Source: a virus (Duplodnaviria; Heunggongvirae; Uroviricota; Caudoviricetes). Taken from it: a DNA stretch of 18,588 nt. Below are positions 16,741 through 18,186 of the stretch, piece after piece. The DNA is taken from positions 1 through 18,588 of the IMG/VR virus record IMGVR_UViG_2526164690_000035; one strand, given 5' to 3'. A model generated the notes under the pieces. The model saw only the letters and a list, made by a program, of their open reading frames with translations. It did no database searches and was not told the origin of the DNA. How positions within the stretch are numbered: position 1 is the first letter of the stretch; every line of letters begins with the position of its first letter. Position numbers and translations under genes: made by a program.

Positions 16741-16770
16741 CTCATTAACATTTAGGAATCATAGAATTAC

Positions 16771-16795
16771 AGGAAGAGGATTAGCACCTCTTCCT
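16771..16795. terminator. Hairpin between the convergent 82-aa gene and the YaaW-like gene
   Basis: aggaagagg-attagca-cctcttcct (9-bp stem) in the 75-bp gap between convergent stops at 16740 and 16816; no strong T-tract on either side. Confidence 0.35.
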
Positions 16796-16815
16796 TGATG
16801 GATGGAGTTATAATA

Positions 16816-17568
16816 TCACAAGGTAATATCGCTGTCTTTAATATTATTATTGACTTTCGCCCTTAGTACAGCAACTTGAATAACAGCAGGAATTGTTACT
16901 CGATAAGCAGTTCCTCCCACATCTACAATGGTCCATGCGGCTGTTATAGCCCAACCAATTGGGCCTGTTAAAATAGATAATGCTTTTACGAGTATTTGAT
17001 TACCTGCGAGTGTTAAACCGCGTCCAATTAAAATTTTTAGTAAAAGATTCGCAAATTTAAGAGTTACCTGATAAGATCTGAAACCGCCAGCCCTGAAAAT
17101 ATATTGGAAGGCAGATAGAACTGCCTCAGGAGTAAATCTTGTAACTTCATCCAATCCAAGTTCCATGGCAAAAACTTTTATATCTTCGGATGACATGTTA
17201 TCTAGAGAGTCGCTGAGAATTTTTAATAGAAGATTTTGTTCAATAACCTCTATTCGGCTCTTGGCATTGAAATTAACCTTTAGCTTATTGCATACATCAA
17301 TGAGAATTTCTCTGTAGCAGACCCCTTTACCACCACGCAAGAGAGTTGCTATGGTATTTCCACCATAACATTGAATTTCAGCAGCAATTTCTCTCCAATA
17401 TACGCTATGTCTTGGTGCAAATTCCTTATATTGTCGATTGTTAGATAACTCTTCAGTCCATCTTTTTTTGCCATCGTTATCATAAATCAATAGGTTAACT
17501 AAATCATCAAGATCACGGTCGCTACATTTAGCTAGGAATTCAAGATCGCTGTCTTTTCTGTATGCCAT
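16816..17568 (-). CDS. YaaW-like (UPF0174/DUF3944-type) protein of unknown function
   Basis: 250-aa ORF with GGAG 7 nt upstream of the ATG and only 15 nt after the HTH gene stop. Blocks resemble E. coli YaaW as I recall it: DSDLEFLAKCSDRDLDDLVNLL, WREIAAEIQCYGGNTIATLLRGGKGVCYREILIDVCNKLKV, and the Gly/Ala-rich hydrophobic C-terminal segment GPIGWAITAAWTIVDVGGTAYRVTIPAVIQVAVLR. AT-rich codon usage. Confidence 0.65.
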   Translation of the reverse strand: MAYRKDSDLEFLAKCSDRDLDDLVNLLIYDNDGKKRWTEELSNNRQYKEFAPRHSVYWREIAAEIQCYGGNTIATLLRGGKGVCYREILIDVCNKLKVNFNAKSRIEVIEQNLLLKILSDSLDNMSSEDIKVFAMELGLDEVTRFTPEAVLSAFQYIFRAGGFRSYQVTLKFANLLLKILIGRGLTLAGNQILVKALSILTGPIGWAITAAWTIVDVGGTAYRVTIPAVIQVAVLRAKVNNNIKDSDITL

Positions 17569-17583
17569 ATGTACACTCCATTT

Positions 17584-18057
17584 TTAAATCAAGTCATCTC
17601 TTAGATTTTTAGCTACAACCATATAAAATGTTGCATATTTCATAATAATATCATCAAATTCTTTGTCTAAAACACTTCCAAGTTTCCCGTCTATAAATTT
17701 CCTCATAACGTTATTCATTCCATGTGTTTTAGCAAATATATTTTTTCCGTCTATTAAATTATCATCCTCAACAGGAGAATAAGATACACTCCATCCACAT
17801 TTGATTAAGTTTTTTGCCGATTTTGTGGAAATATCAAGAAGTATGGTTGCATCAATATTAATGATTTTACAGAATTTCATCATATTCTCTACAGAGAGAG
17901 AGGACTTACCATTTTCAATTTTTCCCCAGCCGGCACTTGTTATCCCAAGGCCAGATGCAATGTCTGATTGAGTAACACCATGCTTCTCGCGAAAATCGCG
18001 AATATGGAAAGCCAATATAGTTAAATAGGATGTTTTCATATGGGTAATGATACTCAC
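17584..18057 (-). CDS. HTH XRE-family (Cro/C1-type) DNA-binding protein with a roughly 70-aa C-terminal extension
   Basis: N-terminal helix-turn-helix KHGVTQSDIASGLGITSAGWGKIENGKSSLSVENMMKFCKIINIDATILL. Track ORF starts at the GTG at 18057; the ATG at 18037-18039 (MKTSYL...) is the more likely start (151 aa). C-terminal region not recognised. Confidence 0.75.
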   Translation of the reverse strand: MSIITHMKTSYLTILAFHIRDFREKHGVTQSDIASGLGITSAGWGKIENGKSSLSVENMMKFCKIINIDATILLDISTKSAKNLIKCGWSVSYSPVEDDNLIDGKNIFAKTHGMNNVMRKFIDGKLGSVLDKEFDDIIMKYATFYMVVAKNLRDDLI

Positions 18058-18074
18058 AGTTTATAAAACTTCAA
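18047..18074 (-). promoter_or_regulatory. Candidate sigma70 promoter giving a leaderless transcript for the HTH gene
   Basis: On the minus strand: TTGAAG (-35), 16-nt spacer, TATCAT (-10), then 7 nt (tacccat) to the ATG at 18039. An 11-bp palindrome AACTTGAAGTT overlaps the -35 and could be an operator. Confidence 0.3.
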
Positions 18075-18155
18075 GTATTTTATTGCGATAATCGTATGCG
18101 AGTCCACTTCTTGGTTGAAGATTGAACTTCGGTAATGTGCTGAAGAGACATTTAA

Positions 18156-18177
18156 TCATGCCCGGCATCAACCGGGC
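18156..18177 (-). terminator. Hairpin 3' of the KilAC-domain gene
   Basis: atgcccgg-catcaa-ccgggcat (8-bp stem), 10 nt beyond the stop at 18187; on the minus strand it is followed by GATTAAATGTCTCTT, an imperfect T-tract. Confidence 0.35.
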
Positions 18178-18186
18178 ATTCTTCCA

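What the first reader, a model, noticed from the sequence alone, without database searches (positions are those of the whole stretch)
16741..18180. AT-rich two-gene cassette: HTH-XRE regulator plus YaaW/DUF3944-like protein between the portal gene and an antirepressor-like gene
Two tightly linked minus-strand genes (15-nt gap, SD before the second) form an island that is visibly much more AT-rich than the flanking phage genes and is bracketed by hairpins at 16771-16795 and 18156-18177. The first gene is an XRE-type HTH protein with an unrecognised C-terminal extension and a possible leaderless promoter; the second is a YaaW-like protein with a Gly/Ala-rich hydrophobic C-terminal segment, a family with no established function. 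A regulator plus effector-like gene inserted as cargo in a P1-like variable position is the typical layout of phage-borne defence, abortive-infection or superinfection-exclusion modules. I know of no described system built from this pair, so it is my top candidate for something new.
Basis: partly seen in the sequence, partly recalled or inferred. Interest (0 to 1): 0.8.

Follow-up and report, generated by a model that had tools for sequence, protein, structure and literature searches.

The report
Known Xre–JukA anti-jumbo-phage defence cassette
The AT-rich two-gene island is a real mobile anti-phage defence module, but not a new kind: it closely matches an E. coli regulator-plus-JukA operon already shown to block nucleus-forming jumbo phages, here carried on a P1-like phage-plasmid.

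Summary
Two co-oriented minus-strand genes sit in a 35% GC island inside a 47% GC P1-like phage-plasmid. The window is 100% identical to E. coli O111:H11 plasmid p88_0502-1.

The novelty claim does not hold. The 250-aa DUF3944/YaaW protein matches the PADLOC JukA model over its full length (3e-66). It is 73% identical to WP_121372120.1, the JukA of operon "Jo6 (jukA;HTH-XRE, Escherichia)". Li et al. (bioRxiv 2022.09.17.508391; Cell 2025) showed that Jo6 gives specific immunity to ΦKZ-like jumbo phages, with JukA alone sufficient. The HTH protein is 66% identical to the Jo6 Xre, C-terminal extension included.

New details found here:
- The cassette is a 1.4-kb insertion (about 16744-18158) between lxc and ant. 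It occurs in 8 of about 704 E. coli genomes that carry these flanks.
- The right-hand hairpin belongs to the backbone, not the cassette.
- The Xre protein is a dedicated JukA partner in every testable locus.
- A conserved promoter carries a 15-bp palindrome, a likely operator.
- In this lineage the xre ATG lies 7 nt after the −10 box, so the mRNA is probably leaderless.

Verdict: a new member of a known kind, of modest interest.

The parts
16744..18158 (-). Inserted Xre-JukA cassette (about 1415 bp, 35% GC). It replaces about 11 nt of the lxc-ant intergenic spacer of P1-like phage-plasmids.
   Evidence: Alignment with the empty-site plasmid p95NR1A. Homology ends just after the lxc stop (about 16743) and resumes at 18159. 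GC content. The cassette occurs in 8 of 704 E. coli genomes that match the flanks.
16816..17568 (-). jukA: a 250-aa protein with a DUF3944 N-terminal domain, a Cbp3-like core, and a conserved hydrophobic Gly/Ala-rich C-terminal region.
   Evidence: PADLOC JukA PDLC04113 at 3.2e-66, residues 2-242. Pfam PF13099 and PF03981. 73% identity to the functionally tested Jo6 JukA, WP_121372120.1. Annotated as WP_000331488.1.
17584..18039 (-). xre: a 151-aa XRE-family HTH protein with a family-specific C-terminal domain. It is the dedicated partner of this JukA clade. Some records annotate it from GTG 18057.
   Evidence: HTH_3 at 8e-9. 66% identity to the Jo6 Xre over all 151 aa. The family has only 16 members at E<=1e-5 in a word-seeded search, and the named ones are all Enterobacterales. 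Every testable locus has a 250-254-aa JukA gene 9-17 nt downstream. AF2 model pLDDT 86. Only the HTH half matches known folds, such as R-M controller proteins.
17576..17579 (-). Shine-Dalgarno GGAG for jukA, within the 15-nt intergenic gap.
   Evidence: Read directly from the sequence.
18047..18074 (-). Predicted operon promoter: -35 TTGAAG (18074-18069), 16-nt spacer, -10 TATCAT (18052-18047). The xre ATG lies 7 nt downstream, so the mRNA is probably leaderless.
   Evidence: Consensus scan. The 34-nt block AAACTTGCAGTTTnATAAACTGnGAGTATCAT is conserved in 7 of 7 related loci whose flanks are otherwise unrelated. The other loci have 15-27 nt after the -10 box, most with a clear GGAGG-type SD.
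18057..18071 (-). Candidate Xre operator: a 15-bp palindrome (consensus CAGTTT-nAT-AAACTG; here AAGTTTTATAAACTG, one mismatch) lying between the -35 and -10 boxes.
   Evidence: Alignment A8. It is the only match in the window at <=2 mismatches. That Xre binds it is inferred, not shown.
16771..16795 (-). Terminator-like hairpin 20 nt after the jukA stop: 9-bp perfect stem, 7-nt loop, no U-tract.
   Evidence: -14.8 kcal/mol, z -3.1. It lies inside the inserted segment.
18156..18177 (.). Backbone hairpin (GCCCGG-N-CCGGGC) in the lxc/ant intergenic spacer. It is not part of the cassette.
   Evidence: An identical sequence is present in the empty-site plasmid. Folds on both strands.
16492..16740 (+). 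Left flank: an 82-aa protein, annotated 'modulator protein' in other P1-like records. Assigning it to P1 lxc (bof) rests on my own knowledge of the P1 map.
   Evidence: phrog_2160 at 7.8e-57. The identical protein WP_000747846.1 occurs in both cassette-free and cassette-bearing plasmids.
18187..18588 (-). Right flank: the 3' part of a phage antirepressor (KilAC/ANT) gene that runs off the end of the window.
   Evidence: PF03374 at 1.8e-30. Annotation of p88_0502-1.

Best explanation
This is an Xre-JukA cassette, the 'single-protein' variant of the Juk (jumbo phage killer) defence family. It is carried as accessory cargo in the lxc-ant gap of a P1-like phage-plasmid.

Proposed mechanism, taken from the characterised homologues:
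1. JukA is diffuse in uninfected cells.
2. When a nucleus-forming (Chimalliviridae/ΦKZ-like) jumbo phage injects, JukA concentrates at the injection site, the early-infection vesicle at the pole, in response to ejected phage factors.
3. Without a JukB partner it arrests the infection at that early stage. Phage DNA is not degraded and the cell is saved.

The conserved hydrophobic C-terminal region of JukA is inferred to mediate the vesicle/membrane or target contact.

The upstream Xre protein is inferred to be the operon's autorepressor. It would bind a conserved 15-bp palindrome between the -35 and -10 boxes, as controller proteins do in mobile restriction-modification modules. In this lineage its mRNA is probably leaderless.

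The benefit would go to the P1-like prophage-plasmid, which protects its lysogen from competing jumbo phages such as Goslar-like E. coli phages.

Shown here: family membership, orthology to a tested operon, insertion boundaries, the strict Xre-JukA linkage, and the conserved promoter and palindrome.

Inferred: everything about activity in this host, the target phages, Xre binding and the leaderless start.
For: Family and orthology.
- PADLOC JukA models match over the full length (3.2e-66 and 1.4e-62).
- Pfam gives DUF3944 plus the Cbp3-like domain. This is the architecture Li et al. describe for JukA.
- Li et al. tested operon Jo6 ('jukA;HTH-XRE', Escherichia, WP_121372120.1; Immunity = Yes). 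They report that jukA alone was sufficient, that the JukA proteins able to act alone (Escherichia, Janthinobacterium, Vibrio) relocalised to the infection site, and that infection was arrested without genome degradation.
- I located Jo6 on E. coli plasmid NZ_CP085065.1. The window proteins are 73% (JukA) and 66% (Xre) identical to it with no gaps.
- A 2026 review confirms that JukA alone can protect and that the mode of action is unclear.

Mobile accessory status.
- GC is 35% against 47%.
- The empty site is defined by p95NR1A.
- The cassette is present in 8 of 704 flank-bearing E. coli genomes.
- The window's near-identical cassette has no counterpart in the phage collection, where a JukA protein search found only two distant homologues (33-34% identity).

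Xre as a dedicated regulator.
- Every homologue examined sits 9-17 nt upstream of a JukA gene.
- The promoter and palindrome are conserved in 7 of 7 loci.
- The HTH fold matches R-M controller proteins, with target-normalised TM-score about 0.8.
Against: - No experiment was done on this allele or in E. coli. Jo6 was tested only in P. aeruginosa PAO1 against Pseudomonas phages.
- 27% sequence divergence from Jo6 could change specificity or abolish activity. 7 of the 17 tested jukA operons gave no immunity.
- Xre was dispensable in the heterologous assay. Its strongly conserved C-terminal domain therefore has no demonstrated role.
- The palindrome is degenerate in Jo6 itself.
- The leaderless start is predicted from spacing only.
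- The JukA AF2 model is only moderate (pLDDT 66; C-terminal region below 50). It has no structural match in the PDB, so the structure adds no mechanistic support.
- The peer-reviewed Cell version could not be read.
Confidence: 0.85

Rival explanations
1. The pair is a type II toxin-antitoxin or abortive-infection module. JukA would be a membrane-active toxin and the Xre protein its antitoxin and autorepressor.
For: The layout fits: a small HTH gene directly upstream of a larger gene with a hydrophobic C-terminus. The HTH protein gives weak sub-threshold hits to HipB, PezA, HigA and MqsA antitoxin models. The pair is strictly linked.
Against: Li et al. deleted the Xre partner of the 73%-identical Jo6 operon and jukA alone still gave immunity. 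That implies it could be expressed without its partner. They describe Juk immunity as rescuing the cell. Close JukA homologues also occur with no Xre neighbour. None of the antitoxin models reaches its cut-off.
Confidence: 0.05
2. The Xre protein is the functional output, or a second sensor, in the native host. JukA would signal to it, or its C-terminal domain would bind JukA or a phage factor, so that transcription of phage or P1 genes changes on infection.
For: The C-terminal domain is conserved, with invariant G82, W83, D93, L95 and K134 within the motif GWsVSYSpVEdDnL, and it co-varies with JukA. In the confident model (pLDDT 86) it packs against the HTH as a single unit. A 2026 review lists 'transcriptional regulators' among Juk effector partners. 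XRE repressors with signal-responsive C-terminal domains, such as Stl and DdrO, are the best full-length fold hits, though with poor rmsd.
Against: Xre was dispensable for anti-ΦKZ immunity in the Jo6 and Janthinobacterium operons. The palindrome inside its own promoter points to simple autoregulation. It occurs only once in the window, so no P1 targets are evident there.
Confidence: 0.2
3. The cassette is inert or decaying hitch-hiking cargo, or it serves a housekeeping chaperone role like the Cbp3 family, with no defence function in this plasmid.
For: The leader and SD of xre have been lost in this lineage. The neighbouring darB is a pseudogene in this plasmid. 7 of the 17 jukA operons tested by Li et al. 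were inactive. There is homology to Cbp3 chaperones.
Against: Both ORFs are intact. Five other plasmids encode a 100% identical JukA, and the cassette DNA is at least 98.5% identical across seven plasmids from pigs, cattle and humans on several continents. All subfamily-invariant residues are retained. Location on mobile elements and low GC argue against housekeeping. E. coli already has a chromosomal yaaW, which is only 33.6% identical.
Confidence: 0.08

Closest known systems
Jo6 'jukA;HTH-XRE' operon of Escherichia (JukA WP_121372120.1; Li et al., bioRxiv 10.1101/2022.09.17.508391, Suppl. Table 4; published in Cell 2025)
   Same: Same two genes in the same order and of the same sizes (151/152 aa and 250 aa). 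JukA is 73% and Xre 66% identical, with no gaps. The promoter core is shared and the GC is equally low (36%). Both are carried on a roughly 94-100 kb phage-plasmid.
   Different: The host replicon differs: the portal proteins are only 50% identical, and Jo6 lies beside TnpB/HicA and head genes. Jo6 has a 14-nt leader with a GGAGG SD that this cassette lacks, and its palindrome is degenerate. This allele is untested.
JukAB of Pseudomonas aeruginosa PA14 (canonical Juk system)
   Same: Same JukA sensor family, with a full-length match to the PADLOC JukA HMMs. The expected trigger is the same: early infection by nucleus-forming jumbo phages.
   Different: There is no JukB here. The only partner is an Xre regulator with no JukB similarity. 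Li et al. report that JukA proteins able to act alone arrest infection without the phage-DNA degradation seen with JukAB.
Chromosomal YaaW (UPF0174) of E. coli K-12 and relatives
   Same: Same family and architecture.
   Different: Only about 33.6% identical. It is a core-genome gene without the Xre partner.
Cbp3 / ubiquinol-cytochrome c chaperone (PF03981)
   Same: The core domain shows detectable sequence homology (3.7e-8). Li et al. report HHpred probability 98.6% for JukA.
   Different: Cbp3 is a mitochondrial assembly factor. It has no DUF3944 domain, no link to mobile elements and no known defence role.
Controller (C) proteins of restriction-modification systems (C.BclI, C.Esp1396I, C.AhdI)
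   Same: The XRE HTH fold matches (target-normalised TM-score about 0.8, rmsd 1.2-1.6 Å over about 68 residues). Both are small regulators encoded at the head of a mobile defence operon with a palindromic site in their own promoter.
   Different: The Xre here carries an extra C-terminal domain of about 75 aa with no fold match. Binding and regulation are untested. The resemblance is one of working principle, not family membership.

Membership tests
Juk defence family (JukA-containing systems) | Full-length homology of the protein to JukA | tested here: met
   PADLOC JukA PDLC04113 at 3.2e-66 (residues 2-242 on profile positions 4-241 of 245) and PDLC04111 at 1.4e-62.
Juk defence family (JukA-containing systems) | Architecture of a DUF3944 N-terminal domain plus a Cbp3-like (PF03981) core | tested here: met
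   PF13099 at 7e-14 (residues 3-37) and PF03981 at 3.7e-8 (residues 56-227). Both are above their gathering scores.
Juk defence family (JukA-containing systems) | Close relationship to an experimentally validated JukA | tested here: met
   73% identity over 248 aa with no gaps to WP_121372120.1 (Jo6, Immunity = Yes).
Juk defence family (JukA-containing systems) | Retention of the residues whose mutation abolishes PA14 JukA function (N66/S67, R73/K74, Y79, E104, region 161-214) | tested here: inconclusive
The motif GGNT..(5)..R.G.G..Y.E is present, and N71, R78, Y85 and E87 are invariant across 23 subfamily members. The correspondence to PA14 numbering is inferred by eye.
Juk defence family (JukA-containing systems) | Specific immunity against ΦKZ-like nucleus-forming jumbo phages, with JukA relocalising to the injection site | not testable with these tools
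   Li et al. report immunity for Jo6 and relocalisation for the JukA proteins able to act alone, not for this allele.
Canonical two-component JukAB | A JukB effector encoded with JukA | tested here: not met
   The cassette holds only two genes. The partner hits no JukB model in PADLOC, only generic HTH models. The flanking genes are P1 backbone, identical in plasmids without the cassette.
Xre-paired JukA subtype (Jo6 type) | An upstream XRE-family partner homologous to that of Jo6, co-oriented and tightly linked | tested here: met
   66% identity over all 151 aa, including the C-terminal domain. The gap is 15 nt here and 17 nt in Jo6. The same pairing is seen in every testable locus, on chromosomes and phage-plasmids of several Enterobacterales genera.
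Type II toxin-antitoxin system | Toxicity of the downstream protein, neutralised by the upstream HTH protein | not testable with these tools
   Indirect evidence argues against it. The Jo6 Δxre construct was viable and protective. The antitoxin HMM hits are all far below their cut-offs.

The most novel reading that the evidence does not exclude
The dedicated Xre protein may be more than an autorepressor. Its conserved, fold-orphan C-terminal domain could couple JukA or infection status to transcription, for example by timing establishment after the phage-plasmid enters a new host, or by derepressing on jumbo-phage attack. The loss of its leader in this P1 lineage could retune that switch. If so, the Xre-JukA pair would be a two-component sensing circuit, and phage-plasmids would be specialised vectors of anti-jumbo-phage immunity in Enterobacterales.
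Probability: 0.2. Interest if true: 0.5.

Novelty: new member of a known kind. Interest (0 to 1): 0.3.

Why it matters
The result removes a false 'new system' lead. The YaaW/DUF3944 plus Xre pair is the Juk family's Xre-JukA subtype, already validated experimentally.

What remains of value is modest but concrete:
- How JukA alone blocks infection is still described as unclear.
- This allele sits in a genetically tractable P1-like prophage-plasmid of E. coli, where nucleus-forming phages such as Goslar are available. That makes it a convenient native-host model.
- The strict Xre-JukA linkage, the conserved promoter with its palindrome, and the fold-orphan Xre C-terminal domain give testable handles on regulation.
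- The module recurs on at least three kinds of phage-plasmid backbone: this P1-like one, the Jo6 plasmid with only a 50%-identical portal, and a third 110-kb contig with phage genes. It also sits at a chromosomal lysS-proximal hotspot. This suggests temperate elements spread anti-jumbo-phage immunity.

Tried and rejected
- A megablast of the region against 50,697 phage records found only the flanks, never the cassette. A tblastn with JukA found two distant phage-collection hits (33-34% identity), one a 290-kb Salmonella enterica contig. PHROGs nevertheless holds a family matching JukA over its full 250 aa, labelled 'unknown function' (phrog_13238, 4.8e-169).
- A PDB sequence search with JukA found nothing below E = 0.25.
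- The AF2 model of JukA is only moderate (pLDDT 65.7; residues 161-219 below 50), and Foldseek against the PDB gave no hit below E = 0.8. No structural inference is drawn from it.
- The Xre model is confident (pLDDT 86). Only its HTH half matches known structures. Full-length hits (DdrO, Stl, PrgX) have rmsd of 9.5-15 Å, so the C-terminal fold stays unassigned.
- The peer-reviewed Cell paper (PMC12147104) is not held. Claims therefore rest on the 2022 preprint, its supplements and later reviews.
- WP_000331488 was not found in Li et al.'s Supplementary Table 3, but the stored file is truncated, so this is uninformative.
- An Rfam scan of 16200-18588 found nothing relevant.
- The NCBIfam hit 'acidic protein MsyB' (NF007593) was rejected as a naming artefact. 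The model is 237 positions long and its hits coincide with the chromosomal yaaW-like loci.
- The idea that both hairpins bracket the island as mobile-element ends was rejected, because the right one is backbone.
- The TA-system reading was rejected on the published Δxre result.
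Full report
**1. Observation**

The window carries two co-oriented minus-strand ORFs, at 16816-17568 (250 aa) and 17584-18057. They are separated by 15 nt that contain GGAG, 7 nt before the downstream ATG.

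The segment is a clear compositional island. GC is 35.1% against 47.4% for the rest of the window. GC3 is 0.27 for both genes, against 0.63 for the neighbouring portal gene.

Both reported hairpins exist and fold better than shuffled controls:
- 16771-16795: perfect 9-bp stem, -14.8 kcal/mol, z -3.1.
- 18156-18177: -20.6 kcal/mol, z -3.8.

Pfam confirms the domain calls. The first protein has HTH_3 (8e-9), and no family reaches its cut-off on the C-terminal half. The second has DUF3944 (7e-14) plus the Cbp3-like Ubiq_cyt_C_chap domain (3.7e-8). Its last ~65 residues are Ala/Leu/Gly/Val/Ile-rich and moderately hydrophobic.

**2. Where the window comes from and what the island is**

The region is 100% identical to plasmid p88_0502-1 of bovine E. 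coli O111:H11 (NZ_CP077568.1). This is a 99-kb P1-like phage-plasmid.

The local gene order is: portal, a 144-nt darB remnant, lxc, [jukA-xre], ant-icd.

Many P1-like plasmids have lxc and ant directly adjacent. Alignment with one of them, p95NR1A, places the insertion at about 16744-18158.

The right-hand hairpin is present in the empty site too. It is therefore backbone (the lxc/ant spacer) and not an end of the island.

The cassette is rare. It is in 8 of the 704 complete E. coli genomes that match the flanks (5,426 genomes searched), in 7 of 703 plasmid records, and in none of the phage records. It is accessory cargo, not core P1. From my own knowledge of the P1 map (not tested here), P1 itself carries its type III res-mod genes next to lxc.

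**3. Identity**

PADLOC's JukA models match the 250-aa protein end to end (3.2e-66).

JukA is the renamed YaaW family. It is the sensor of the 'jumbo phage killer' (Juk) system of Li et al. (bioRxiv 10.1101/2022.09.17.508391).

That paper notes Xre regulators next to jukA and tested 17 synthetic operons. Operon Jo6 ('jukA;HTH-XRE', Escherichia, JukA WP_121372120.1) gave specific immunity to ΦKZ-like jumbo phages in PAO1. Li et al. also report the following:
- Deleting either gene showed that jukA alone was sufficient.
- The JukA proteins able to act alone (Escherichia, Janthinobacterium, Vibrio) were tagged and moved to the infection site.
- Infection was arrested early, without the genome degradation seen with JukAB.

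Using the Jo6 DNA fragment from their Supplementary Table 4, I located the source locus on E. coli plasmid NZ_CP085065.1. The window's JukA is 73% identical to the Jo6 JukA over 248 aa, with no gaps. The HTH protein is 66% identical over all 151 aa, including the C-terminal extension.

The pair is therefore a described and experimentally validated kind. The inference that it is a defence module was right.

**4. Further anatomy found here**

*Start codon.* Homologues begin at MKTSYL, and PGAP uses that ATG in NZ_CP122822.1. GTG 18057 lies inside the promoter. The xre CDS is therefore 17584-18039, 151 aa.

*Promoter and operator.* A 34-nt block, AAACTTGCAGTTTnATAAACTGnGAGTATCAT, is conserved upstream of xre in 7 of 7 loci from Escherichia, Klebsiella, Enterobacter, Pectobacterium, Serratia and phage-plasmid contigs. 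The flanks of these loci are unrelated, and the Xre proteins are only 47-66% identical. The block contains three elements:
- a -35 box (TTGCAG; TTGAAG here);
- a -10 box (TATCAT);
- between them, the palindrome CAGTTT-nAT-AAACTG.

The palindrome is perfect in four of the seven loci, has one mismatch here and in the Enterobacter locus, and is degenerate in Jo6. It occurs only once in the window. I infer that it is the Xre operator and that the operon is autorepressed.

*Leaderless xre.* The other loci have 15-27 nt after the -10 box, most with a clear GGAGG-type SD. The window has only 7 nt before the ATG. Transcription would then start at or next to A18039.

*Dedicated partner.* The Xre family is small: 16 proteins at E<=1e-5 in a word-seeded search, and the named ones are all Enterobacterales. 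In every locus with enough sequence, a 250-254-aa JukA gene follows 9-17 nt downstream. Some close JukA homologues lack this partner. They sit next to dynamin-like genes or other genes instead.

*Where the pair occurs.*
- On this P1-like plasmid.
- On the Jo6 plasmid, whose portal protein is only 50% identical.
- On a third 110-kb contig with phage genes (Dam, pRha).
- On chromosomes downstream of lysS, a NUDIX gene and a LysM/M23 gene, in several loci beside a resolvase.

*Structures.* The Xre model is confident (pLDDT 86). An N-terminal strand pairs with the conserved GWSVSYS strand, so the two halves form one unit. Only the HTH half matches known folds, best of all the R-M controller proteins. 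The C-terminal fold has no match. The JukA model is moderate (pLDDT 66; hydrophobic region below 50) and matches nothing in the PDB.

**5. How it most likely works**

By homology to Jo6 and the other JukA proteins able to act alone:
1. JukA is made at a level set by Xre autorepression.
2. It is diffuse until a nucleus-forming jumbo phage injects.
3. It then concentrates at the early-infection vesicle and stalls the infection before phage transcription and nucleus formation.
4. The cell, and the resident phage-plasmid, survive.

How JukA does this without JukB is not known; a 2026 review says the mode of action is unclear. Deletion of residues 161-214 abolished PA14 JukA function and relocalisation. 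The corresponding region here is the conserved hydrophobic segment, so I infer that it mediates the vesicle or target contact.

Activity of this particular allele, its E. coli phage targets (Goslar-like phages are the obvious candidates) and Xre binding are all untested.

**6. Rivals**

- *Toxin-antitoxin reading.* It fits the layout and the weak antitoxin-like HTH hits. It conflicts with the viable, protective Δxre Jo6 construct.
- *Xre as real effector or second sensor.* Its conserved C-terminal domain keeps this reading open, and the review lists transcriptional regulators among Juk partners. Xre was dispensable in the only assay done.
- *Inert cargo or a housekeeping chaperone.* This is unlikely. 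The cassette is intact and at least 98.5% identical across plasmids from different hosts and continents.

**7. Verdict**

This is a real feature, correctly delineated apart from one hairpin and the start codon, and correctly guessed to be a defence module. It belongs to a known, experimentally characterised subtype (Xre-JukA of the Juk family). It rates as a new member of a known kind.

Residual interest lies in four points: the unresolved JukA-only mechanism, the dedicated Xre C-terminal domain, the conserved operator, and carriage by phage-plasmids.

Noticed in passing
window 16255-16398 (+): darB (N-6 DNA methylase/helicase antirestriction gene) is reduced to a 144-nt 5' remnant, and the gene between darB and lxc is missing in this plasmid. 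Other cassette-bearing plasmids (e.g. NZ_CP122822.1, NZ_CP101271.1) keep the full darB, the intervening hypothetical gene and lxc. The deletion is therefore independent of the JukA insertion.
   Followed up: partly
window 18039 vs 18057 (-): Public records disagree on the xre start. PGAP nt (GTG 18057) in p88_0502-1 and NZ_CP101271.1, but 456 nt (ATG 18039) in NZ_CP122822.1. Homologues and the conserved promoter favour the ATG.
   Followed up: yes
window 16748-16754 and 18148-18154 (+): A 7-nt direct repeat, ACATTTA, sits just inside both borders of the inserted segment. The empty site reads CCATTTT at the junction. It may be microhomology from the insertion event or it may be chance; the 7-mer occurs 4 times in the window.
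   Followed up: partly
NCBIfam NF007593 / PGAP annotations of chromosomal yaaW loci (hits H103-H113): The 237-position NCBIfam model that matches YaaW/JukA-like proteins is titled 'acidic protein MsyB'. The chromosomal loci hit by the JukA query are annotated 'msyB' in several records. This looks like a naming error that hides JukA homologues.
   Followed up: partly
window 1-1500 and 9750-10750: There are two further low-GC islands (28-37% GC). The first holds a serine acetyltransferase gene (264-836, -) among tail-fibre assembly genes. The second lies just upstream of, and runs into the start of, a plasmid-borne ompC porin gene (10602-11717, +). A TnpB/InsQ gene lies at 5272-6480 (-). These are probably other cargo or host-range modules of this phage-plasmid.
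   Followed up: no
L001 (NZ_CP077568.1) 13788-23434, beyond the right end of the window: The plasmid carries three icd-ant (cell-division inhibitor / KilAC antirepressor) modules within about 10 kb. One ant copy has an internal stop. A site-specific integrase and the c1 repressor gene lie among them. The immunity region looks duplicated or mosaic.
   Followed up: no
L011-L013, L015-L016, L019 (Klebsiella, Enterobacter, Serratia chromosomes): On chromosomes the Xre-JukA pair sits at the same spot, downstream of lysS, with NUDIX and LysM/M23 peptidase genes between them in Klebsiella and Enterobacter. In Klebsiella a resolvase gene follows the pair; the Pectobacterium locus has integrase and resolvase neighbours instead. 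This suggests a recurrent integration hotspot.
   Followed up: partly
L006 (K. pneumoniae pGYB02-1) and about 37 other Klebsiella plasmids: Klebsiella plasmids of roughly 105-116 kb carry a distant JukA homologue (25-28% identity, about 220 aa). It is followed by an overlapping 315-aa gene of unknown function, and it sits near phage Dam and exonuclease genes. This may be another JukA-plus-partner variant on phage-plasmids.
   Followed up: no
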